From Pseudomonadota bacterium (GTDB lineage Bacteria; Pseudomonadota; Alphaproteobacteria; Micavibrionales; UBA2020), in the NCBI GenBank assembly GCA_021849295.1, contig JAJZTA010000007.1, positions 64,007 to 128,006 of the forward strand: 64,000 bases of DNA, in the 5' to 3' direction. Made by a program: the position numbers and the translations under genes. Positions 18,001 to 46,464 of the stretch are shown here, in pieces. A model generated the notes under the pieces. It had not been told where the DNA came from and made no database searches. It saw only the letters and a program-made list of their open reading frames with translations. Numbering within the stretch: position 1 is the first letter of the stretch; each line of letters opens with the position of its first letter.

Positions 18001-19803
18001 TTACGGCTTGGCTTTCAGCAGCTTGTCGCGCAGCGGCTGCTTGACGAGGCGGTAGAGCTTCGGCTTCAGCTTCATCTGCTCGTCGGCGGCGTACTGCAGC
18101 GCGTCGTTCCACGCGGCGTACTTCTTGACGAAGGCTTCGGCCTTCTTCGGGTCGCCGTCGAGCTGCAGCTGGATGACTTCCGTCAGCATCTCCCTTGCCG
18201 TGTCGGCCATTTTTCCCGGCACGATGGAGAGCTTGCCGCCTTTTTCAAACAGAATGGCGCCTTTTTCGCGGAAGTAGTTGAGCTGCATGATCGAGCGCGA
18301 GCGGTGCGCTTCTTCCGCCGAGGGCTGCTTGGTCGGCAGTTCGCGCGCGGCCCAGGTGAGGAATATCTTGTCGGCCTGTTCTTGCGTGAACTTGCCGATG
18401 TCGAGGAAATGCCCCGTCATCGCGATGGAGATCACGTCGGCCTTGTTTTCCTCCAGCATGCTGCCCCACTGGCCGAGCGCGGCGTTTTTGTCGCGTCCGT
18501 CGCTGGTGGAACGGGGCCCGAGGGAGTGGCCGAGCTCGTGCCCGACGGTGAAGAGGAAGTCGGCGTTGGTGTCGTAGAGTTTGTGTTGCGAAGGATCGAC
18601 CAGCGCGTCGAGGAACTTCTGCTGCTGGGCGGGATCGCCGCTCTGGCGCACCTGACGGTGGAAGACGAGGCGGCTGCCTTCCTTCATTTGCACGGAGAGC
18701 TTGTCGCTGTTGGGCAGGTTCTGCGCGATGGTGATGCCGCCGCGCACCGCCGCGTAATCGCCCGCGATGCAGACGAGATCGACGTCGGCGAAGGTCATCT
18801 TCGCTTGCCGGCCGCCGGTCTGGTCCTGATACTGGTCTTTGAGCGGCATGATGGCGTTGAGGCCGTCGAGATGCTTGCGGTAGTCGGCGATCTCGGCGTA
18901 GGACTCCTGATTGACGATGCCGACGCGGATGCCGATGCTGTCCTTGGATTTGGCCTTGATGCCGTTGGCGTCGAGCACCGCCTTGACCTTCGGGTCGGCG
19001 GAGACGGCGCTGCTCATGCGGTCGTCGTAGCATTCGCGGCCGATGGTGAATTCCAGCGGCGAATCCTCGAGATTGGCCCAGGTTTTGTCGGCATTGAAGG
19101 TCATTTCCGCGTCGCTGTCGTTGACCAGCGCCTGCGCCTGCCAGCGCAGATATTTGGCAAGGCCCGCGTGGTCGGTTTCCCTGGCGGCGGCGAGCAGTTC
19201 TTTCGCCGCGCCCTGCATTTCCTCGCGGAAGGCGACGGAGTAGGGCAGGGCGACGAGGTTCTTGCCCTCGCGTTTGACGATGGTGTTGTTGCTGAAGATC
19301 GCTGAGGCCTGCTCCGGATGCTTGACGATGTATTGCGCGAGTTCCTTTTTGGTCAGGTCCTGCGGATAGAAGCCTTTGCCGACGGAGAGCTTCTTGTCCT
19401 TGAAAATATCGAGCGGCTTGGTTTTGGGCGCGTAAAGGTCCTTGCCTTCGAGGCCGTTGTGCAGGGTGAACAGGGTCAGCGCCTCTTCGGCCACCTTGTC
19501 GCCTTTGGCGGCGGCCTTTTTGAGCAGCTTTTCGGCGCGGATGTTGTCCGGATGGTCTTGGCGGAGGAAGGCGCTGTCCAAAATCGCGGCGGCCTTGACG
19601 AGGTGGCTGAGCGCGCGCTGGTTGGCGGGGGTGAGCTTGCCGTAGGCGTCGTCGAGCGTGCCGAAGTCCATCACCCGCATCTTGTTGGTGACGATGTCGT
19701 CGAGCTTTTTGGGGGAAATGCCGAGCGTAAATTCGCCCTTTTTGCCGAGGCCGCGCTTCGCGAAACTGGAATTGGCGACGGGGGAAAGCTTCTTCTGTGC
19801 CAT
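18001..19803 (-). CDS. M49 (dipeptidyl-peptidase III)-like zinc metallopeptidase
   Basis: 600 aa. 'FTVGHELGHSLG' (HExxH) followed about 40 aa later by 'LEENKAD', which matches the second M49 zinc motif EExxAE/D. Confidence 0.65.
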   Translation of the reverse strand: MAQKKLSPVANSSFAKRGLGKKGEFTLGISPKKLDDIVTNKMRVMDFGTLDDAYGKLTPANQRALSHLVKAAAILDSAFLRQDHPDNIRAEKLLKKAAAKGDKVAEEALTLFTLHNGLEGKDLYAPKTKPLDIFKDKKLSVGKGFYPQDLTKKELAQYIVKHPEQASAIFSNNTIVKREGKNLVALPYSVAFREEMQGAAKELLAAARETDHAGLAKYLRWQAQALVNDSDAEMTFNADKTWANLEDSPLEFTIGRECYDDRMSSAVSADPKVKAVLDANGIKAKSKDSIGIRVGIVNQESYAEIADYRKHLDGLNAIMPLKDQYQDQTGGRQAKMTFADVDLVCIAGDYAAVRGGITIAQNLPNSDKLSVQMKEGSRLVFHRQVRQSGDPAQQQKFLDALVDPSQHKLYDTNADFLFTVGHELGHSLGPRSTSDGRDKNAALGQWGSMLEENKADVISIAMTGHFLDIGKFTQEQADKIFLTWAARELPTKQPSAEEAHRSRSIMQLNYFREKGAILFEKGGKLSIVPGKMADTAREMLTEVIQLQLDGDPKKAEAFVKKYAAWNDALQYAADEQMKLKPKLYRLVKQPLRDKLLKAKP

Positions 19804-28156: not shown

Positions 28157-29758
28157 TCACGTCCCCGGCTTTTTGGTCTTGTGGTGCTTGTTGGCGTTGG
28201 CGGCGGCTTGCGGGGCGTAGGGCTTGCCCGTATATCTCCGGCTCAGGTGGTCGAGATAGTATTTGGCGTTCAGCTTCTCGCCCGTGGCGGCGATCAGCAG
28301 CGCGTCGGTGGTCAGCTCCGAGCCCTTGGAGTGGATGTTCTTCTTCAGCCACTCGCGCAGCGGCTTGAAGTTTCCGGTGGCGAGCTCCTTGGGAATCTCC
28401 GGATGCGCCTTGGTGGCGGCGGCGTAAAGCTGCGCCGCGATCATGTTGCCGAGCGCGTAGGCGGGGAAGTAGCCGACGGCGCCGGTCGGCCAGTGGACGT
28501 CCTGCATGCAGCCCTTGGAATTGTCGGGCGGGGCGATGCCGAGCAGCTTTTGCATGCCGTCGTTCCACGCCTTGGGCAGGTCGTCGATGGCAAGCTTGTT
28601 CTCGATCAGCTCTTTTTCGAGCTTGTAGCGCAAGAGGATGTGCGCGGGATAGGTCAGCTCGTCCGCCTCGATGCGGATGAAGGAGGGGTTGACCTGATTG
28701 GCCAGCAGCTGCAGGTTTTCGGCCGAGAGCGCGGGGTCGTTGGGGCGGTTGAACACCTCGCGCGCCTGTTTTTCGAGATACCGGAAGAATTCCGGCTCGT
28801 GCGCGGCGTTGCGCTCCATGATGCCGGACTGGCTTTCATGCACCGCCATGCCCATCGAGGCGCCGACCGGCTCGTAGCGGTGTTTCAAAGGCGTGCCCTG
28901 CTCGTAGAGCGCGTGACCCGCCTCGTGCACGGTGGAATAGACGGCGGAGAGGAAGGAGTTTTCGTCCGAAGCGTCGGTGGTGAAGCGCACGTCCGAGGCG
29001 CTGCCGCCGGTCGAGGGGTGCGCGTCGATGGCGAACATCTTGCCGCGGGTGAAGTCGAACCCCATGGCCTCCGTCAGGCGGCGGCTGAGCTCGGCCTGCT
29101 GCTCCTGCGGGAAGGGGCCTTTGAGCGGCAGAGGCTGCGGGCCTTTCTTTTGCAGGTCGACCGCCTCGCGGATCAGCCCCGGCAGGGCCTTTTCAAGCGC
29201 CGCGAACTCGTGCGCCACGGTGGCGTCGGCGATGTCGGGCGAGAAGCTGTCGAGCAGCGCCTCGTAAACCGAGGCCATGCCGAGCTTCTCCTTGCGAATC
29301 TCCCCGACGGTGCGCATGACGTCGAAGGAATGCTTGTACCAGTCCTTCATTTTCGACCAGTCGCCGGTCTTGCGGAGTTCGGTGTGCAGCTTTTCGCCCT
29401 CGTTGCCGATGCGGGCGATCTCGGTCGCCAGCTCGTCGGAGAGGCCGGCCTGCGCAACCCAGGCGCGGCGCATCAGGGTGAGGTTGCGCTGGTCGATTTT
29501 GGAGAGGTTTTTCTTGTCCTGCTCCGCGTCGTCGAGCCATTCCTCCACTTTCGGGTCTTTAATCAGGTTGTGAGCAACCTCCGCCAAGGCCATGATTTGT
29601 CTGGAGCGGTCTTCCGCGCTGTTTTTCGGCATCACGGTTTCCGCATCCTTGTTGAGGATCGCGGCGGCGTTGTTGATGTCGATGATTTTCGCGAAGCGGT
29701 CTTGCAGTCTTTGATAGGCGCTCTTCGGTGCGGCGGGCATGTCCTGTTTCCTTTTCAT
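28157..29758 (-). CDS. M32 carboxypeptidase (Taq-type)
   Basis: 'HEAGHALYE', 'HESQS', 'IRIEADELTY' motifs. 533 aa from the ATG at 29756-29758 (alternative start 29740). Confidence 0.9.
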   Translation of the reverse strand: MKRKQDMPAAPKSAYQRLQDRFAKIIDINNAAAILNKDAETVMPKNSAEDRSRQIMALAEVAHNLIKDPKVEEWLDDAEQDKKNLSKIDQRNLTLMRRAWVAQAGLSDELATEIARIGNEGEKLHTELRKTGDWSKMKDWYKHSFDVMRTVGEIRKEKLGMASVYEALLDSFSPDIADATVAHEFAALEKALPGLIREAVDLQKKGPQPLPLKGPFPQEQQAELSRRLTEAMGFDFTRGKMFAIDAHPSTGGSASDVRFTTDASDENSFLSAVYSTVHEAGHALYEQGTPLKHRYEPVGASMGMAVHESQSGIMERNAAHEPEFFRYLEKQAREVFNRPNDPALSAENLQLLANQVNPSFIRIEADELTYPAHILLRYKLEKELIENKLAIDDLPKAWNDGMQKLLGIAPPDNSKGCMQDVHWPTGAVGYFPAYALGNMIAAQLYAAATKAHPEIPKELATGNFKPLREWLKKNIHSKGSELTTDALLIAATGEKLNAKYYLDHLSRRYTGKPYAPQAAANANKHHKTKKPGT

Positions 29759-29921
29759 GGGTGAATTTCGCAACTCAAAGTCTAGCAAACAGTTTACAAA
29801 AAAACAATTAACGCCCCCGCCGTCCGCGCCGCGCCGATTTGATAAATAGCCCCTTGAAAACATTATAGAAAAATCATTAAATTGAAGACATATAAAACGC
29901 AATCAGGAGGCACCCTCGATT

Positions 29922-31508
29922 ATGCTACCGGTCATGCAAGCGAACCCCGCGGACGTCATCGCCCATTTCATGCAGGTCATGAACCAGTCGACGGGAACGC
30001 TCTTTTCGAGCCTGAACCCCTACATCCTCGCGCCGGTTTTCGTCTCCGTCCTTTTGTTGCTGATCGGCTACTACAGAAATTACCAGTTTCCCGCCAACGC
30101 CATCGCCCGCGCGCTGGAGAAGGTGTCCTACGCGGTCTATCTCGCGCGGCAAACGCACAAGGGCGCGCCCGACAAGCTGGCGAGCGTACTCGACGGCATT
30201 TTCGCCCTGTCGCCGTTCAAGGATTTGTGGGCGGAATATTGCAGCTCGCTGCACACCATCGAGGGCGCCGGCGGCGAAACCGCCGTGCTGGCGACCGCGC
30301 CGGCGGAGGCGTTCTTCCCGCGCGAGGCGGTGGTCGACCAGCACATCAACGCCGATTTTTACCGCCACCTGCCTGGCATTCTTACCGGCATCGGCATCAT
30401 CGGCACGTTCAGCGGCCTCGTCTGGGGCCTGCACCAGTTCAACCCCGCCGCCAAGGACGCCGTCGCGTCGCTGCCGCTGCTGCTGCAGGAGGTGGCCTCG
30501 GCCTTCGTCGGCTCGGGCTTCGCCATTCTCGCCGCGATCTTCGTGACCTATAAGGAGAAATCCGCGCTCAACCGCTGCTACCGCGCCGCCGCCGAACTCA
30601 ACCGCGAGATCGACGGGCTTTACGCCACGGGCGTGGGCGAGGAATATCTCGCCCGCCTCGTCGCCGCGGTGGAAAACAACAACGCCGTGCAGCAAAAACA
30701 AACGCAAGTGCTGGCGGAGCATATCGCCGTCGCCGTGCGCGAGGCTTTGGCCGAGCCGATGCAAAAGCTCACCGCCGTGGTCGAGCGCGCCACCGCCAAT
30801 CAGGAGGAAGCCGTCGGCGACATTCTCCAACAAGTTTTAACGTCCTTCTCCGCGCAGCTCGACGAGATGTTCGGCAACCAGATCGAGCGGGTGAAGGCCT
30901 CCTTCGCCGACGCGACGGAAGCGATGGCGCAGGTGCGCGATTCCATGACCGCGCTGCTCGGCGACATGGCCTCGGTCGGCGTCAGCGCCGTCGACCAGAT
31001 GTCGGGCACGCTGAGCAAAGCCGCGGAGAACGCCTCGGCCGCGCAGGAAAAGCTCAACGACCAGACGCGCGTCTTTATCGACGATATCCGCGACCTTCTC
31101 ATCCGCAACCAGAACCAGACCGCGCAGGCGATGGACGTGACGATGCGCGCCGTGCTGGTGAAACTGCAGGGCGCCTTGACGCGTTTGGCCTCCGACCGCG
31201 CCGCGCAGATCGCCGATGACAAAAAGCGCATCGCCGAGCTGACCGGCGCGGTCGCCAAGCTGATCGCCAGCGTCGACGCCTCGGCGGAGCGCACGGCGCA
31301 CAGCATTAACACGCTGCACAGCGCCACTGGCGAGGTGATCTCGGGCATGAACGACGGCGCGGCCGTCATGCGTCAGGCGGCGGACAGGTTCGCGCTCGCG
31401 GGCCACACGCTCTCCGTCGCGCTGGAAAAATCCGGGGCGCTGACCGAAACCGTCGAACAGATGCAGGAACTGCTGGCCTCGGCCGTGCAGCTGCGGCAGG
31501 CGGTGTAA
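29922..31508 (+). CDS. ZorA-like MotA/ExbB-family proton-channel protein with long helical C-terminal tail
   Basis: 528 aa. TM1 around aa 34-51, a ~100-aa soluble segment, then the MotA/ExbB-type hairpin 'LPGILTGIGIIGTFSGLVWGL' and 'ASAFVGSGFAILAAIFVTY'. About 300 aa of Ala/Gln/Glu-rich helical sequence follow. AGGAGG RBS. Confidence 0.7.
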   Translation: MLPVMQANPADVIAHFMQVMNQSTGTLFSSLNPYILAPVFVSVLLLLIGYYRNYQFPANAIARALEKVSYAVYLARQTHKGAPDKLASVLDGIFALSPFKDLWAEYCSSLHTIEGAGGETAVLATAPAEAFFPREAVVDQHINADFYRHLPGILTGIGIIGTFSGLVWGLHQFNPAAKDAVASLPLLLQEVASAFVGSGFAILAAIFVTYKEKSALNRCYRAAAELNREIDGLYATGVGEEYLARLVAAVENNNAVQQKQTQVLAEHIAVAVREALAEPMQKLTAVVERATANQEEAVGDILQQVLTSFSAQLDEMFGNQIERVKASFADATEAMAQVRDSMTALLGDMASVGVSAVDQMSGTLSKAAENASAAQEKLNDQTRVFIDDIRDLLIRNQNQTAQAMDVTMRAVLVKLQGALTRLASDRAAQIADDKKRIAELTGAVAKLIASVDASAERTAHSINTLHSATGEVISGMNDGAAVMRQAADRFALAGHTLSVALEKSGALTETVEQMQELLASAVQLRQAV

Positions 31509-31514
31509 CAAGGC

Positions 31515-32285
31515 ATGTTCGCACGCACGCTCATCCGCAGACGCCCCCGCGACGAGGGCGAAAAACCCTTCTGGATCTCGTTCACCGACCTGATGACCGC
31601 CTGCATGACGGTCTTTCTCATCGTCATGGCGGTGACGGTCGTGACGCTGAAGGACGAGATCGCCCGCCTCGAGCGCATCAGCGCCGCCACGCACCGGCGG
31701 CAGGTGGAAATCGGGCGGTTCGCCGACGCGCTGCGGCTCGCCTCGGAGCGCAAATATCCCGACGTGCAGGTGAGCATCATCAAGGACAAGGTGGATATCG
31801 ACTTCGGCACGGACGTCAACTTTCTTTCCGGCTCGTCGGAGATCTCGGACGCGGGCGCGCGCTTTTTGCGCGGCTATCTGCCGATCGTCCTCTCCGCCGC
31901 CGAAACGCCGCTCGGAGAAAAATGGCTGAAGCGCGTAGTGGTCGAGGGCTATACCGACATCGACGGCAGCTATCTTTACAACCTCAACCTCAGCCTCGCG
32001 CGCAGCCGCGCCGTCGTCTGCACGCTCTTTACGCCGGGCGCTTCGCGCCCTGAATCCATATCAGACGCCTTCGCGTCGGGCGAACAGACCATGACGCGCC
32101 ACCAGCTCGAGCAGATGCGCGACCTTTTCCTCGTTGGCGGCTATTCGTTCAATTCCATGATGCCCTCGAAGGCGCAGAGCCGCCGCATCGAGCTGAAACT
32201 CGATTTCTGGCAGCTGGGCGAAAAGGCCGAGGACGCAAAACGCCCGCATCCCGATCTATCCGGCAAGCCTTTCGGGCATTGCTAG
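31515..32285 (+). CDS. ZorB-like MotB/OmpA-family protein
   Basis: 256 aa. 'FWISFTDLMTACMTVFLIVMAV' is a MotB-type TM helix with the conserved Asp. The OmpA-like peptidoglycan-binding motif is 'VVEGYTDIDGSYLYNLNLSLARSRAV'. Starts 6 nt after the ZorA-like stop. Confidence 0.75.
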   Translation: MFARTLIRRRPRDEGEKPFWISFTDLMTACMTVFLIVMAVTVVTLKDEIARLERISAATHRRQVEIGRFADALRLASERKYPDVQVSIIKDKVDIDFGTDVNFLSGSSEISDAGARFLRGYLPIVLSAAETPLGEKWLKRVVVEGYTDIDGSYLYNLNLSLARSRAVVCTLFTPGASRPESISDAFASGEQTMTRHQLEQMRDLFLVGGYSFNSMMPSKAQSRRIELKLDFWQLGEKAEDAKRPHPDLSGKPFGHC

Positions 32286-32878
32286 AGCTGATATTCTTTC
32301 AACACATCCTCGATCGCATCTCCGCCGCAGCCAAGGCCGACGGCGAGGAACAGCGTCTGGTTGCTGGCGCGGTCCTGAAACTGTTCCAGTAAAATCTGCA
32401 GGCCGTATTCCTGCGCCGCGGCGGCGGAGGCGAGGGCGGCCTTGGAAACGTCGCCCGCCGCCGCGATCTGTTTCGCCGCGCCCGCCGTGTCGCCCGCCTC
32501 GACGGACTTGAAGTTGTATTTGGCGATGTTCTTGCGGCACTGGTCGAGCGCCTGCCAGTGGCTGTAGACGGTGCGGATGTCCTCCAGCTTCGCGGCCGGC
32601 AGCCCGAGCAGACAGTGGTGGACCGGCAGCCACAGCGACTTTTCAACCTTATACCCGCCCGCGCGCAACGGCGGCAGCGCGTTGGTCACGGGGCCGGCGA
32701 TCTCGTTGGTGACGGGGATGACGGCGCGGTCGGCGTTGCCCGCATCCACCTCCTGCAGCGCCTCGGCGAAGGTGGCGCAGTGCAGCTTGTCGCAGGCGGG
32801 ATAAAGCGTTTCCGCGGCAAGGCCGGAATAGGCGCCCGCAAGTCCCTGAAAGGCGATGCGCGGTGTTGGCTGAGACAT
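32282..32878 (-). CDS. prephenate dehydratase catalytic domain protein lacking an ACT domain
   Basis: 198 aa with 'RIAFQGLAGAYS' and 'VYSHWQALDQC'. 'NQTLF' replaces the N-x-TRF motif, and the protein ends about 15 aa later. Confidence 0.75.
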   Translation of the reverse strand: MSQPTPRIAFQGLAGAYSGLAAETLYPACDKLHCATFAEALQEVDAGNADRAVIPVTNEIAGPVTNALPPLRAGGYKVEKSLWLPVHHCLLGLPAAKLEDIRTVYSHWQALDQCRKNIAKYNFKSVEAGDTAGAAKQIAAAGDVSKAALASAAAAQEYGLQILLEQFQDRASNQTLFLAVGLGCGGDAIEDVLKEYQL

Positions 32879-42546: not shown

Positions 42547-44607
<2,061 letters not shown>

Positions 44608-44670: not shown

Positions 44671-46464
44671 TTATGCCGTCTTCGCGCCTCTGAAGCCGAT
44701 ATTCCACACGTCCTGCCATGCCTGACGGGCGAGCTCTAGCGTCTGCCCCGGCTTGATGAAGCCTGCATGAAGATACAATGCGTCGTTGAATATATTCTCC
44801 AAAATTTTGCCATACCCTGATTCACTAAGATGTTGTTTAACAGCCTGATAGTCAAGGTTGTTGTGCGTGTCGAGCAGATTAATCAGCGCCTGTCTTATAT
44901 TGTCATATTCCGTGTCCGCCATCGGCAGCATGCCGAGGCTCTCGCCGAATTCGTCGTAAAGCGCGGGATAGCTGATCATCAGGCCGAGCAAAACGCGCAT
45001 CCGGTCGATCTGGCGGCTCTTGCGGGACTTGACCGGCTGGGCCTTGACGCTGTCCGGACGGTAGGGCGTGTTCAGCCCCGGCGTGACGGGTTTTCCCCGC
45101 GCATAGGCCTTTTTCGCGGGCGCTCCGGTTGATGTTTTGCGGGCGAGAAAAGCCCCATCAATCCTTTGATTAATCTCGTTAATGAAGAATTTCTGCACCG
45201 AAAGATCGGAGATGTTGCGCGCGCGCCTGGTGAGTGCGGCGCGAAAGCCCGCCTTGACTTCCGGCTGCGCCATGTCGCGCCCGCGCGCGCATTCCTGCCA
45301 GATCATGTCGAAGAGCGGGATGGCGTTTTTGAGCACGCGCTCCATCGCGCCGCGGCCCTCGGCCTTGATCAGGCTGTCGGGGTCGTGCTCCTCGGGCAGG
45401 AAGGCGAATTTAACAGAATGATCGGGTTTGAGGATCGGCAGCACGCGCTCCATCGCGCGGGCGGCGGCGCGCTGCCCCGCGGCGTCGCCGTCGAAGCAGA
45501 GGATCGGCGTGCGGTTGTCTTCCGGCATGGCTTTCCAGAGAGCCTCGATCTGCTCCTCGGTCAGCGCCGTGCCGAGCGGGGCGACGGGCGCCTTGAAGCC
45601 GGCCTGCGCGAGGGCGATCACGTCCATGTAGCCTTCGACCACCACGGCGACCTTGCCGCCGCCGAGCGCCTTGCGCGCGCGGGAGAGGCCGTAAAGCCCG
45701 CGGCCTTTGTGGAAGATGACGCTCTCCGGCGAGTTGATATATTTCGGCGCATCCTTGCCAGATGTTCCATTCTTTGGGGGCCCGCCGTATGCAGCGGGCA
45801 GCACGCGCCCGCCGAAAGCGACGACGCGCCCCTGAACGTCGAGCACCGGAAAGATGACGCGGTTTCTGAAGAAGGGGTAAATATCCCCCTGTTTTCGCGA
45901 CGAGTTTTTGAACAATCCGGCATCGAGCAGATCGCCGGTTTTGAAGCCCGCCCCGAGCAGGGATTTTTGCAAATCGTCCGCATCTCCATCTGGCGCGTAG
46001 CCGAGGCGGAAACTTTTGATGACGTCTGAAGACAATCCGCGTTCTTTCAGATATTGCAGGATTTTTTTATTCTTCTGGTCGTGAAGCTGCTGCTCGAAGT
46101 ATTTCGCGGCGGCTTCCATCAGATCGTAGAGGCCGGACTGCTTTTTGTAGCGCTGTTCGTCGGCGGGGCTGGACTTGGGCACCTGCATCCCCGCGAGGCT
46201 CGCGAGCTGCTCGACAGCGTCCATAAAGCTCATGTTGTCGTGGTTCATCAGGAAGCCGATGGAATCGCCGTGCGCGCCGCAGCCGAAGCAGTGGTAGAAG
46301 CCCTTCTGGTCGTTGACGGTGAAGGAGGGGGTTTTTTCCTTATGGAAGGGGCAGCAGCCCTTGTATTCGTGTCCGGCGCGGACGAGCTTCATCCGCTTGC
46401 CGATGATATCGGACAAGGGAACGCGCGCGCGCAGTTCATCCTTAAAGGCTTCGGGCAGGGACAT
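44671..46464 (-). CDS. dnaG: DNA primase
   Basis: 597 aa with the zinc finger 'CPFHKEKTPSFTVNDQKGFYHCFGCGAHGD' and a TOPRIM region ('VVEGYMDVIAL'). Confidence 0.97.
   Translation of the reverse strand: MSLPEAFKDELRARVPLSDIIGKRMKLVRAGHEYKGCCPFHKEKTPSFTVNDQKGFYHCFGCGAHGDSIGFLMNHDNMSFMDAVEQLASLAGMQVPKSSPADEQRYKKQSGLYDLMEAAAKYFEQQLHDQKNKKILQYLKERGLSSDVIKSFRLGYAPDGDADDLQKSLLGAGFKTGDLLDAGLFKNSSRKQGDIYPFFRNRVIFPVLDVQGRVVAFGGRVLPAAYGGPPKNGTSGKDAPKYINSPESVIFHKGRGLYGLSRARKALGGGKVAVVVEGYMDVIALAQAGFKAPVAPLGTALTEEQIEALWKAMPEDNRTPILCFDGDAAGQRAAARAMERVLPILKPDHSVKFAFLPEEHDPDSLIKAEGRGAMERVLKNAIPLFDMIWQECARGRDMAQPEVKAGFRAALTRRARNISDLSVQKFFINEINQRIDGAFLARKTSTGAPAKKAYARGKPVTPGLNTPYRPDSVKAQPVKSRKSRQIDRMRVLLGLMISYPALYDEFGESLGMLPMADTEYDNIRQALINLLDTHNNLDYQAVKQHLSESGYGKILENIFNDALYLHAGFIKPGQTLELARQAWQDVWNIGFRGAKTA

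What the first reader, a model, noticed from the sequence alone, without database searches (positions are those of the whole stretch)
29922..32285. Orphan ZorA/ZorB-like proton-channel pair with no recognisable Zorya effector genes
Seen in the sequence:
- Two co-oriented genes are separated by 6 nt.
- Gene 1 (528 aa) has an N-terminal TM helix and a ~100-aa soluble segment. A MotA/ExbB-type TM hairpin follows (LPGILTGIGIIGTFSGLVWGL and ASAFVGSGFAILAAIFVTY). The last ~300 aa (about 30585-31505) are Ala/Gln/Glu-rich and look like a long helical tail.
- Gene 2 (256 aa) has a MotB-type TM helix with the conserved Asp (FWISFTDLMT) and an OmpA-like peptidoglycan-binding domain (EGYTDIDGSYLYNLNLSLARSRAV).

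Established knowledge: this is the architecture of ZorA/ZorB, the membrane motor of Zorya anti-phage systems. Those systems normally also carry ZorC/ZorD (type I), ZorE (type II) or ZorF/ZorG.

Inference:
- Here the flanks are an M32 carboxypeptidase (divergent) and an ACT-less prephenate dehydratase (convergent, stops overlapping). No nuclease, helicase or other effector gene is adjacent.
- Base composition matches the surrounding core genes, so it does not look recently acquired.
- The pair could be a minimal Zorya variant with an effector encoded elsewhere, a decayed system, or a stator-like complex used for a non-defence function.
Basis: partly seen in the sequence, partly recalled or inferred. 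Interest (0 to 1): 0.7.

Follow-up and report, generated by a model that had tools for sequence, protein, structure and literature searches.

The report
Effector-less, short-tailed ZorAB motor pair
These two genes encode a genuine Zorya-type membrane motor (ZorA/ZorB) that has lost its usual DNA-cutting partner genes and the tip of its long tail, yet has been kept intact over a long period in a group of uncultured Alphaproteobacteria, so it probably still does something useful on its own or with an unknown partner.

Summary
zorA (29922-31508, 528 aa) and zorB (31515-32285, 256 aa) are type I Zorya homologues by HMM, sequence and fold; flagellar, Tol and Exb families score far worse. The proton-path and peptidoglycan-binding residues essential in E. 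coli ZorAB are conserved.

No ZorC/D/E/F/G gene lies in the 64-kb window, which is otherwise housekeeping genes.

New findings:
- The pair belongs to a monophyletic "AB-only" clade, with at least 9 distinct lineages at 55-90 % identity, all uncultured Alphaproteobacteria.
- Its sister clade has ZorAB plus a truncated ZorC and no ZorD. Both nest among complete ZorABCD systems.
- AB-only ZorA lacks the C-terminal 117-190 aa found in longer ZorAs. In E. coli, all tail truncations abolish defence and a tail-tip deletion abolishes ZorD co-localisation.
- The pair sits at a conserved chromosomal site next to an M32 carboxypeptidase. dN/dS (0.16-0.20) and dS match the housekeeping neighbours, so it is not decaying.
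- An invariant 19-nt element lies upstream of zorA in all 17 AB-only loci and nowhere else.

Verdict: a stably inherited, reduced variant of type I Zorya. Its output, and whether that is antiviral, are unknown, and the rest of the genome could not be searched.

The parts
29839..29866 (+). Sigma-70-like promoter candidate for zorAB (-35 TTGATA, 16-nt spacer, -10 CATTAT)
   Evidence: Consensus scan. The -10 'nATTAT' is invariant and the -35 'GAcA' is semi-conserved in 7 aligned orthologous upstream regions. Function is inferred, not shown.
29853..29871 (+). Invariant 19-nt element CTTGnnAAnATTATAGAAA, 51 nt upstream of the zorA ATG; probable operator or promoter core
   Evidence: Identical in all 17 AB-only loci and absent from the other 90 loci. 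There is a single hit in the window even with 2 mismatches allowed (0.01 expected). It travels with zorA whether the upstream gene is M32 or the PDE-like gene.
29905..29910 (+). Shine-Dalgarno AGGAGG, 11 nt before the zorA start codon
   Evidence: Read directly from the sequence; AGGAG is invariant in the alignment.
29922..30626 (+). zorA, motor part (aa 1-235): TM1, membrane-proximal cytoplasmic domain with beta-hairpin, TM2 and TM3
   Evidence: PADLOC ZorA1 PDLC00598 gives 405 bits overall, best stretch aa 32-255. PDB 8qyd_A aligns at aa 28-275, whole-sequence E 2.7e-50. AF2 pLDDT is about 70-89 over aa 30-230; Foldseek to E. coli ZorA gives E 4.5e-16. P151, I159, T162 and S198 match Ec P136, I144, T147 and S184. 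dN/dS 0.23.
30627..31508 (+). zorA, cytoplasmic helical tail (aa 236-528 plus stop), lacking the distal 117-190 aa found in longer ZorAs
   Evidence: aa 239-527 is predicted as helix with a 3.65-residue hydrophobic period. The protein is colinear with the first 488-581 aa of ZorAs of 619-729 aa, which then continue for 117-190 aa. dN/dS 0.18. The GMNDGAxVMRxAADRFxxAG motif (aa 475-494) is conserved across ZorA1 proteins.
31515..32285 (+). zorB: TM helix with the proton-carrying Asp25, and a peptidoglycan-binding domain
   Evidence: PADLOC ZorB1 PDLC00611 gives 257 bits over the full length. PDB 8qyd_F, E 9.5e-43. M1-F2, D25 and YNLNLSLAR (Ec Y151, N152, L155, R159) are conserved, as are C169 and C256, which are invariant even against Enterobacter ZorB. 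dN/dS 0.16. The 6-nt gap to zorA suggests translational coupling.
28157..29758 (-). M32 (Taq-type) carboxypeptidase gene; a conserved divergent neighbour, not shown to be a functional part
   Evidence: Pfam Peptidase_M32, E 4e-137. It lies within one gene of zorA in every AB-only locus that has upstream sequence. M32 relatives outside the lineage lack ZorAB, and the L007 copy is frameshifted.

Best explanation
The pair encodes a functional ZorA5-ZorB2-type motor, anchored to peptidoglycan and driven by proton flow. It descends from a complete type I Zorya system (ZorABCD).

In the ancestor of a small lineage of uncultured Alphaproteobacteria, the effector genes zorC and zorD and the last 117-190 residues of the ZorA tail were lost. 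The remaining zorAB pair became fixed next to an M32 peptidase gene, acquired or kept its own conserved promoter/operator, and has since been inherited vertically under purifying selection.

Mechanism, inferred from E. coli ZorAB: ZorB binds the cell wall through its YNLxLSLxR motif. Protons pass via ZorB Asp25 and ZorA Thr162/Ser198. This turns the ZorA pentamer and its helical tail of roughly 290 residues (about 43 nm if fully extended).

The canonical output cannot apply here, because it depends on ZorC and ZorD and, in E. coli, on an intact tail tip. The signal must therefore go to a non-canonical partner that docks on the shortened tail, or the ion flux itself is the output. Whether the result is antiviral or a general envelope-stress response is unresolved.

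Shown: identity, conserved residues, loss of effectors locally, tail truncation, selection and synteny. Inferred: 5:2 assembly, rotation, sensing and output.
For: Identity:
- PADLOC ZorA1 405 bits and ZorB1 257 bits.
- NCBIfam ZorA_3 subfamily scores 272.7, above its cutoff of 250.
- PDB E. coli ZorA E 2.7e-50 and ZorB E 9.5e-43.
- Foldseek top hits are 8qyh, 8qyd, 8qyk and 8qyy (E about 5e-16, target TM 0.70-0.79), against E >= 0.02 for TolQ, ExbB and MotA.

Functional residues essential in E. coli (PMC11946911) are conserved:
- ZorB D25, Y/N/L/R of the PG site, and M1-F2.
- ZorA P151, I159, T162, S198, E105, H111, E241 and Y242.

No effectors:
- phmmer with ZorC and ZorD queries finds nothing in the window or in any AB-only locus. 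Essentially every canonical locus with enough downstream sequence has ZorB-ZorC-ZorD.
- PADLOC on 149 window ORFs gives only ZorA/B plus three other models, MzaA, RT_UG29 and RTasDnaG-like; all three are false positives on RpoD and DnaG.
- tblastn with the short ZorC gives E >= 1.8.

Tail truncation: the protein is colinear up to residues 488-581 of the longer ZorAs, which carry 117-190 further residues.

Derived state: in an NJ tree the AB-only clade has 92 % bootstrap. It is sister to the ZorAB+short-ZorC clade (joint support 100 %) and nests among ABCD systems.

Vertical inheritance and selection:
- dN/dS is 0.20 for ZorA (tail 0.18) and 0.16 for ZorB, against 0.17 for M32, 0.17 for DAHPS and 0.24 for PDT. 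dS is uniform at 0.24-0.31.
- ZorA/B identities track those of neighbouring housekeeping genes across loci.
- GC3 equals that of the neighbours, and no flanking repeats are present.

Own regulation: the 19-nt element is invariant in 17 of 17 AB-only loci and absent from 90 others.
Against: - Only the 64-kb window and flanks of up to 10 kb in relatives were searched, so an effector elsewhere in the genome is not excluded.
- Loci were found by searching for ZorA, so related genomes that have lost the pair would not have been seen. 'Core gene' status is therefore not demonstrated.
- In E. coli, ZorAB without ZorC/D gives no defence and all tail truncations are inactive (PMC11946911). By that precedent, this pair should be inactive as a Zorya system.
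- Several E. coli contacts differ: Arg108 is Leu, and the second Ca2+ ligand Glu89 is Ser/Thr/Ala. There is also an apparent deletion at the tail base, around Ec Leu250-261.
- The 5:2 stoichiometry was not modelled, and AF2 confidence in the tail is low (pLDDT about 42-74).
- dS from the Nei-Gojobori method is approximate in a genome with 85 % GC3.
Confidence: 0.65

Rival explanations
1. This is a minimal or split Zorya. The pair still works as an anti-phage sensor with canonical ZorC/ZorD-like, or other Zorya-type, effectors encoded elsewhere in the genome.
For: - The motor and PG-binding residues are intact.
- The most conserved tail motif (aa 475-494) is retained.
- The rest of the genome could not be searched.
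Against: - In about 50 canonical loci, zorC and zorD are always immediately downstream of zorB.
- The tail tip is missing. In E. coli a tail-tip deletion abolishes ZorD co-localisation and all tail truncations abolish defence.
- None of at least 9 AB-only lineages has an effector within 10 kb.
- The sister clade shows stepwise effector reduction, with no ZorD and a truncated ZorC.
Confidence: 0.12
2. The conserved neighbours are the new partners. The M32 carboxypeptidase, or in half of the clade the HD/PDEase-like protein, is recruited or regulated by the ZorAB tail, giving a new effector module.
For: - M32 lies within one gene of zorA in all AB-only loci with upstream sequence, although the outer flanks differ between two configurations and the PDE-like gene changes sides.
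- The PDE-like gene is co-oriented directly upstream of zorA in L007, L008/L009 and L014.
- That gene has no characterised relatives.
Against: - The adjacency is confined to this single lineage. M32 relatives at 59 % identity and at 32-42 % have no ZorAB, and 80 other ZorA loci have no M32.
- M32 is more conserved than ZorAB and behaves like a housekeeping enzyme.
- The M32 copy in L007 is frameshifted while zorAB is intact.
- The PDE-like gene is absent from the window and from L001 and L010.
- The 19-nt element shows that zorAB has its own promoter regardless of the upstream gene.
- Neither protein hits any PADLOC model.
Confidence: 0.1
3. This is a decaying remnant of a type I Zorya system that is no longer functional.
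For: - The effectors and the tail tip have been lost.
- A truly decayed relative exists. L021 is a 362-aa ZorA fragment with no ZorB, in which Thr147 is Ala and Ser184 is Phe.
Against: - dN/dS of 0.16-0.20 equals that of housekeeping neighbours, and this includes the tail.
- The ORFs are intact in at least 9 lineages down to 55 % identity.
- All essential motor residues are kept.
- A strong RBS and an invariant upstream element are present.
Confidence: 0.03
4. This is not Zorya at all, but a flagellar MotAB stator or a TolQR/ExbBD-type energiser.
For: - General 5:2 motor architecture.
- A weak MotB_plug hit (18.4 bits, below the cutoff of 24) and a borderline OmpA domain (27.3 bits against a cutoff of 27.2).
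Against: - There is no Pfam MotA_ExbB hit.
- MotB, MotD and Pal models score E >= 6e-4, against 1e-58 for ZorB1.
- Foldseek gives E >= 0.02 for TolQ, ExbB and MotA, against about 5e-16 for ZorA.
- No flagellar, Tol or TonB genes lie in any neighbourhood.
Confidence: 0.01

Closest known systems
Type I Zorya ZorAB of E. coli NCTC 9026 (PDB 8QYD; Hu et al. 2024, PMC11946911)
   Same: - Same protein families by HMM, sequence and fold.
- Same topology: three TM helices, a cytoplasmic domain and a helical tail in ZorA; one TM helix and a PG-binding domain in ZorB.
- Conserved ZorB Asp, ZorA Thr/Ser ion filter, Pro136 and Ile144 equivalents, PG-binding Tyr/Asn/Leu/Arg, and ZorB Met1-Phe2.
   Different: - There is no zorC or zorD.
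- ZorA is 528 aa rather than 729 aa. About 148 aa beyond Ec residue 581 are missing, and there is an apparent deletion at the tail base.
- Arg108 is Leu, and Glu89 (a Ca2+ ligand) is Ser.
- Only one of the two ZorB disulfide pairs can be conserved.
- It is chromosomal, syntenic and vertically inherited rather than carried on a defence island.
- It scores below the NCBIfam ZorA1 and ZorB1 equivalog cutoffs.
ZorAB plus short ZorC ('ABc') systems of other Alphaproteobacteria (L011, L015, L018, L019); apparently undescribed
   Same: - It is the nearest sister clade (41-47 % ZorA identity, 62-64 % ZorB identity; joint bootstrap 100 %).
- It shares the Arg108-to-Leu change and the non-acidic residue at Glu89.
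- It also lacks ZorD.
   Different: - The ABc systems keep the tail tip (ZorA 619-852 aa).
- They keep a ZorC1 homologue of 388-392 aa, which covers profile positions 28-405 of 575.
- They lack the 19-nt element and the M32 neighbour.
Type II and type III Zorya ZorAB (with ZorE, or with ZorF/ZorG)
   Same: The same ZorAB core, paired with alternative partners. This shows that the core can work with different effectors (PMC11890865, PMC8565338).
   Different: - Scores are much weaker: ZorA2 55.9 bits, ZorB2 54 bits and ZorB3 31 bits.
- No ZorE, ZorF or ZorG is present in the window.
MotAB, PomAB, ExbBD and TolQR 5:2 ion-driven motors
   Same: The general 5:2 rotary architecture, the TM Asp on the B subunit and, for MotB, an OmpA-like PG-binding domain.
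   Different: - There is no significant sequence match to the A subunits.
- Fold matches are about 14 orders of magnitude weaker than to ZorA.
- These motors have no long helical tail.
- The genomic context is different.

Membership tests
ZorA/ZorB protein families (Zorya membrane motor) | Significant match to curated ZorA and ZorB profile HMMs, better than to MotA/ExbB/TolQ and MotB | tested here: met
   PADLOC ZorA1 405 bits and ZorB1 257 bits. NCBIfam ZorA_3 subfamily 272.7, above its cutoff of 250. Precomputed Pfam PF28082 ZorA-like_t1. No MotA_ExbB hit.
ZorA/ZorB protein families (Zorya membrane motor) | Conserved proton-carrying Asp in the ZorB TM helix and Thr/Ser ion filter in ZorA TM2/TM3 | tested here: met
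   ZorB D25 matches Ec D26. ZorA T162 and S198 match Ec T147 and S184, and are invariant in the clade.
ZorA/ZorB protein families (Zorya membrane motor) | ZorB peptidoglycan-binding residues (Ec Tyr151, Asn152, Leu155, Arg159) | tested here: met
   The YNLNLSLAR motif is present. Tyr, Leu and Arg are invariant and Asn nearly invariant across 11 ZorBs.
ZorA/ZorB protein families (Zorya membrane motor) | Long cytoplasmic helical tail on ZorA | tested here: met
   aa 239-527 is predicted as helix with a 3.65-residue amphipathic period. The tail is shorter than in type I relatives.
ZorA/ZorB protein families (Zorya membrane motor) | ZorA5:ZorB2 assembly | not testable with these tools
   No multimer prediction is available. 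The monomer fold matches chains of the solved 5:2 complexes.
Type I Zorya anti-phage system (ZorABCD) | zorC (EH-signature protein) adjacent to zorB | tested here: not met
   No ZorC hit in the window or in any AB-only locus. zorB's stop codon overlaps the convergent PDT gene.
Type I Zorya anti-phage system (ZorABCD) | zorD (Snf2-like helicase/nuclease) in the operon | tested here: not met
   No ZorD hit in the window or in any AB-only locus. It is present in essentially all canonical loci with enough downstream sequence.
Type I Zorya anti-phage system (ZorABCD) | Full-length ZorA tail including the tip, which E. coli needs for defence and for ZorD co-localisation | tested here: not met
   The C-terminal 117-190 aa of longer ZorAs have no counterpart here. 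For the E. coli truncation phenotypes see PMC11946911.
Type I Zorya anti-phage system (ZorABCD) | NCBIfam equivalog cutoffs for ZorA1 and ZorB1 | tested here: not met
   ZorA1 scores 237.8 against a cutoff of 750. ZorB1 scores 198.4 against a cutoff of 400.
Type I Zorya anti-phage system (ZorABCD) | Protection against phage infection | not testable with these tools
   This needs an experiment. The organism is uncultured.
Type II / type III Zorya | ZorE (HNH nuclease), or ZorF and ZorG, next to zorAB | tested here: not met
   PADLOC scan of 149 window ORFs finds no ZorE, ZorF or ZorG. ZorA2, ZorB2 and ZorB3 give only weak scores.
Flagellar stator MotAB / PomAB | MotA_ExbB domain, MotB plug, and a flagellar gene neighbourhood | tested here: not met
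   No MotA_ExbB hit. MotB_plug scores 18.4, below its cutoff of 24. MotB and MotD NCBIfam models give E >= 6e-4. No flagellar genes in the window or in relatives.
ExbBD / TolQR | Best sequence or fold match to ExbB/TolQ, with TonB or TolA/Pal neighbours | tested here: not met
   Foldseek gives E >= 0.02, against about 5e-16 for ZorA. No such neighbours are present.

The most novel reading that the evidence does not exclude
The ZorAB motor has been domesticated. After losing its nuclease effectors and tail tip, it was retained for a long period as a chromosomal, separately regulated envelope-integrity sensor. It either serves a non-defence (housekeeping or stress) role, or acts as a self-sufficient minimal defence whose output is ion flux or an entirely new tail-binding partner. 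Either way, it would be the first case of a Zorya motor working without any Zorya effector.
Probability: 0.3. Interest if true: 0.8.

Novelty: new variant of a known kind. Interest (0 to 1): 0.55.

Why it matters
Current models rest on E. coli and related systems. They hold that ZorAB is only a sensor and transducer, that it is useless without ZorC/D (or ZorE, or ZorF/G), and that the full tail is indispensable.

A lineage in which selection has maintained ZorAB alone, with a naturally truncated tail, contradicts the simplest form of that view. It offers a natural experiment with three questions:
- What can the motor do by itself?
- Which part of the tail is the minimal functional unit?
- Can defence-system cores be exapted for cellular functions?

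The graded series ABCD, then AB plus truncated C, then AB, also gives a concrete evolutionary pathway for the reduction of a defence system. In practice, such pairs would presumably be reported only as incomplete Zorya by defence-system annotators such as PADLOC, whose relaxed classifications need only two co-located genes (PMC8565338). This analysis shows that at least one such class is not junk.

Tried and rejected
- **M32 as functional partner.** I scanned metagenomes with an M32 alignment. Only 12 loci came back. The nearest outgroup (59 % identity) and the relatives at 32-42 % lack ZorAB. This supports lineage-specific synteny but is too sparse to be decisive.
- **PDE/HD-like neighbour.** It has no hits in PADLOC, NCBIfam or PDB, and only a short N-terminal PDEase_I match in Pfam. 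It is absent from the window, so its role remains unknown.
- **Other defence genes in the window.** The PADLOC hits to MzaA, RT_UG29 and RTasDnaG-like looked promising, but they fall on RpoD and DnaG. They are false positives.
- **Alternative sigma-factor reading of the 19-nt element.** Read by eye against my recalled sigma-32, sigma-54 and EcfG consensus sequences, the spacing fits none of them. Only a sigma-70-like -35/-10 arrangement fits.
- **Tail-base hydrophobic rings (Ec Leu250/254/258/261).** MAFFT places gaps there, while HMMER aligns the region in two overlapping ways. I make no claim about these residues.
- **Mobile-element signatures.** No flanking repeats, no tRNA nearby and no compositional deviation were found.
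- **Rfam.** Only two tRNAs are present in the window.
- **Literature.** No paper in the held library describes a conserved effector-less ZorAB lineage.


Full report
**1.
- The window contains two co-oriented ORFs, 29922-31508 (528 aa) and 31515-32285 (256 aa).
- They are separated by 6 nt.
- zorA is preceded by an AGGAGG ribosome-binding site 11 nt upstream of its ATG.
- Upstream, divergent, lies an M32 carboxypeptidase gene (Pfam E 4e-137).
- Downstream, convergent and with overlapping stop codons, lies a 198-aa prephenate dehydratase that has only the PDT domain.
- The M32 gene most likely starts at 29758 rather than at the upstream TTG. This leaves a 163-bp, 42 % GC divergent intergenic region.

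**2. The proteins are ZorA and ZorB, not MotAB, Tol or Exb.**
- PADLOC gives ZorA1 at 405 bits (E 1e-121) and ZorB1 at 257 bits (E 4e-77).
- NCBIfam's ZorA_3 subfamily model passes its cutoff (272.7 against 250). The type I equivalogs match strongly but fall below their cutoffs.
- Pfam finds no MotA_ExbB domain. It finds only a borderline OmpA domain and a sub-threshold MotB_plug hit.
- The best solved-structure relatives are E. coli ZorA (8qyd_A, E 2.7e-50) and ZorB (8qyd_F, E 9.5e-43).
- An AlphaFold2 model has pLDDT of about 70-89 in the motor domain and is lower in the tail.
- That model matches the E. coli ZorA chains at E about 5e-16 and target TM 0.70-0.79. TolQ, ExbB and MotA appear only at E >= 0.02.

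**3. The motor looks functional.** Hu et al. (PMC11946911) identified residues whose mutation abolishes E. coli Zorya defence.
- Conserved in ZorB: Asp26 (D25 here), the PG-binding Tyr151/Asn152/Leu155/Arg159 (YNLNLSLAR here), and the Met1-Phe2 plug.
- Conserved in ZorA: Pro136, Ile144, Thr147 and Ser184 (P151, I159, T162 and S198 here), plus Glu86, His92, Glu227 and Tyr228.
- Different from E. coli: Arg108 is Leu and Glu89 is Ser/Thr/Ala. Both changes are shared with the sister clade. There is also an uncertain short deletion at the tail base.
- The tail (aa 239-527) is predicted as helix throughout, with three short breaks.
- Its dominant hydrophobic period is 3.65 residues, well above shuffled controls (0 of 200), as expected for a helical bundle.

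**4. No effector is nearby, and the window is not a defence island.**
- phmmer with ZorC and ZorD from Enterobacter and Polynucleobacter systems, and with the short ZorC of the sister clade, finds nothing in the window.
- tblastn with the short ZorC also finds nothing.
- A PADLOC scan of the 149 longest window ORFs returns only ZorA/ZorB models plus MzaA, RT_UG29 and RTasDnaG-like.
- Those three hits fall on RpoD and DnaG and are false positives.
- The rest of the window is housekeeping: metE, pgk, hemB, hmgA, MTHFR, DAHP synthase, cmk, dnaG, rpoD and pepN.

**5. The pair belongs to a coherent 'AB-only' clade.**
- A database search found short ZorA proteins of 521-538 aa at 55-100 % identity. 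The next hits were ZorAs of 612-896 aa at 47 % identity or less.
- Contigs for at least 9 distinct lineages were retrieved: the window, L104-107, L001-3/L013, L012, L004-6, L007, L008-9, L010 and L014.
- All of these are uncultured Alphaproteobacteria or Rhodospirillales-like MAGs, or metagenome contigs.
- Every one has zorA-zorB only.
- By contrast, essentially every canonical ZorA1 locus with enough downstream sequence has zorB-zorC-zorD.
- The nearest outgroup (L011, L015, L018, L019) has zorA-zorB plus a 388-392-aa ZorC1. That ZorC covers only positions 28-405 of the 575-position profile. There is no ZorD.
- An NJ tree (270 columns, 100 bootstraps) gives the AB-only clade 92 % support.
- Its sister is a lone decayed fragment, L021 (94 %). 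Both together are sister to the ABc clade (100 %).
- The whole group nests within ABCD systems.
- The parsimonious reading is stepwise reduction from ZorABCD.

**6. The tail is truncated at its tip.**
- Residues about 26-520 of the window ZorA align colinearly with the first 488-581 residues of ZorAs of 619-729 aa. Each of those then continues for 117-190 more residues.
- The most conserved tail motif of all ZorA1 proteins, GMNDGAxVMRxAADRFxxAG at aa 475-494, is retained. It now lies about 35 residues from the C-terminus.
- In E. coli every tail truncation abolishes defence, and a tail-tip deletion abolishes ZorD co-localisation.
- The joint loss of the tail tip and of ZorC/ZorD is therefore coherent.

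**7. The pair is vertically inherited and under purifying selection.**
- Against a roughly 90 %-identical relative (L104/L106), dN/dS is 0.20 for ZorA (motor 0.23, tail 0.18) and 0.16 for ZorB.
- The neighbours give 0.17 (M32), 0.17 (DAHPS), 0.24 (PDT), 0.46 (carbonic anhydrase) and 0.44 (AhpC).
- dS is uniform across the locus at 0.24-0.31.
- Across more distant relatives, ZorA and ZorB identities track those of the flanking housekeeping genes.
- GC3 matches the neighbours, and no repeats bracket the pair.
- The 'decayed system' option is therefore excluded.
- A real example of decay does exist in L021: no ZorB, Thr147 changed to Ala and Ser184 to Phe.

**8. Conserved context.**
- The M32 gene lies within one gene of zorA in every AB-only locus with upstream sequence. 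This holds across two different outer-flank configurations.
- In half of the clade an HD/PDEase-like gene of 360-392 aa with no characterised relatives sits beside it, on either side of M32.
- The adjacency is limited to this lineage. M32 relatives at 59 % and at 32-42 % identity have no ZorAB.
- One M32 copy (L007) is frameshifted next to an intact zorAB.
- The PDE-like gene is absent from the window.
- I therefore treat M32 as an inherited neighbour rather than as a demonstrated partner.

**9. zorAB has its own conserved cis-element.**
- The 19-nt sequence CTTGnnAAnATTATAGAAA (window 29853-29871) is invariant in all 17 AB-only loci.
- It always lies 50-70 nt upstream of zorA, whatever the upstream gene is.
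- It is absent from the other 90 loci, and it is unique in the window even with 2 mismatches allowed.
- It overlaps a sigma-70-like -35/-10 pair.
- This level of conservation exceeds that of the coding sequence. It suggests an operator or a specialised promoter, so zorAB is probably a regulated, autonomous transcription unit (inference).

**10. Interpretation.**
- Shown: a bona fide ZorAB motor pair with intact key residues, without local effectors, with a tip-less tail, and maintained by selection in a conserved chromosomal position.
- Inferred: it assembles as a 5:2 PG-anchored proton-driven rotor that senses envelope perturbation. Lacking ZorC/D and their docking region, it signals to an unknown partner or acts through ion flux.
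- Whether the outcome is antiviral is open.

**11. Main caveats.**
- The rest of the genome could not be searched.
- The sampling is ascertainment-biased towards genomes that have the pair.
- The tree is NJ with a midpoint root.
- The multimer was not modelled.

**12. Comparison with the literature.**
- Published work treats ZorAB as insufficient on its own (PMC8565338; PMC11946911).
- It describes three subtypes, each defined by its effectors (PMC11890865).
- I found no description of a conserved effector-less lineage.

**13. Classification.** I classify this as a new variant of a known kind, of moderate interest.

Noticed in passing
L011:2010-5778; L015:5583-9480; L018:9953-13997; L019:1165-5632: A sister clade of alphaproteobacterial Zorya I systems has zorA (619-852 aa), zorB and a C-terminally truncated ZorC1 (388-392 aa, covering profile positions 28-405 of 575). 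No zorD is present, although L011, L015 and L018 have room for one downstream. This looks like an undescribed three-gene Zorya variant.
   Followed up: partly
L021:9902-10990: A lone 362-aa ZorA fragment (51 % identity, sister to the AB-only clade) has no zorB, and its ion-filter residues are changed (Thr147 to Ala, Ser184 to Phe). It is flanked by an M48/PDZ peptidase, an EamA transporter and SMC. This is a genuinely decayed copy.
   Followed up: partly
L008:7807-8985; L004:7141-8235; L007:2424-3506; L014:3295-4400; L092:2-1033: A 360-392-aa protein with an HD/PDEase_I-like N-terminal motif (HNKFHY...GHDLDHDG) recurs next to zorA or M32 in about half of the AB-only clade. It sometimes lies directly upstream of zorA and co-oriented with it. 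It has no hits in PDB, NCBIfam or PADLOC, and it is absent from the window.
   Followed up: partly
window 42547-44607 (-) and 44671-46464 (-): Housekeeping RpoD and DnaG give strong false-positive PADLOC hits: MzaA at E 2.6e-75, RT_UG29 at E 2.9e-52 and RTasDnaG-like at E 5e-34. This is a caution for automated defence annotation.
   Followed up: yes
window 32282-32878 (-): The prephenate dehydratase is only 198 aa, with a PDT domain and no ACT regulatory domain. The same short form (197-211 aa) is conserved in relatives, next to a beta-carbonic anhydrase and a DAHP synthase.
   Followed up: no
window 32040-32072 (ZorB aa about 176-186): The window's ZorB carries an 11-residue insertion (ASRPESISDAF) in a loop of the peptidoglycan-binding domain. 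None of the 10 other ZorBs in the alignment has it. ZorB in the roughly 90 %-identical relatives L104 and L106 is also 256 aa, so they probably share the insertion.
   Followed up: no
L007:462-2073: The M32 carboxypeptidase gene is split by a frameshift at residue 365/366 while the adjacent zorAB is intact. This could be either a pseudogene or a metagenome assembly error.
   Followed up: no
window 18001-19803 (-): A 600-aa ORF, also called as a 600-aa gene in the corresponding position of the close relative L104, has no PADLOC hit and none reported in the window-wide Pfam scan. Its only match is a weak one to an NF038122 metalloprotease domain (E 1e-3).
   Followed up: no
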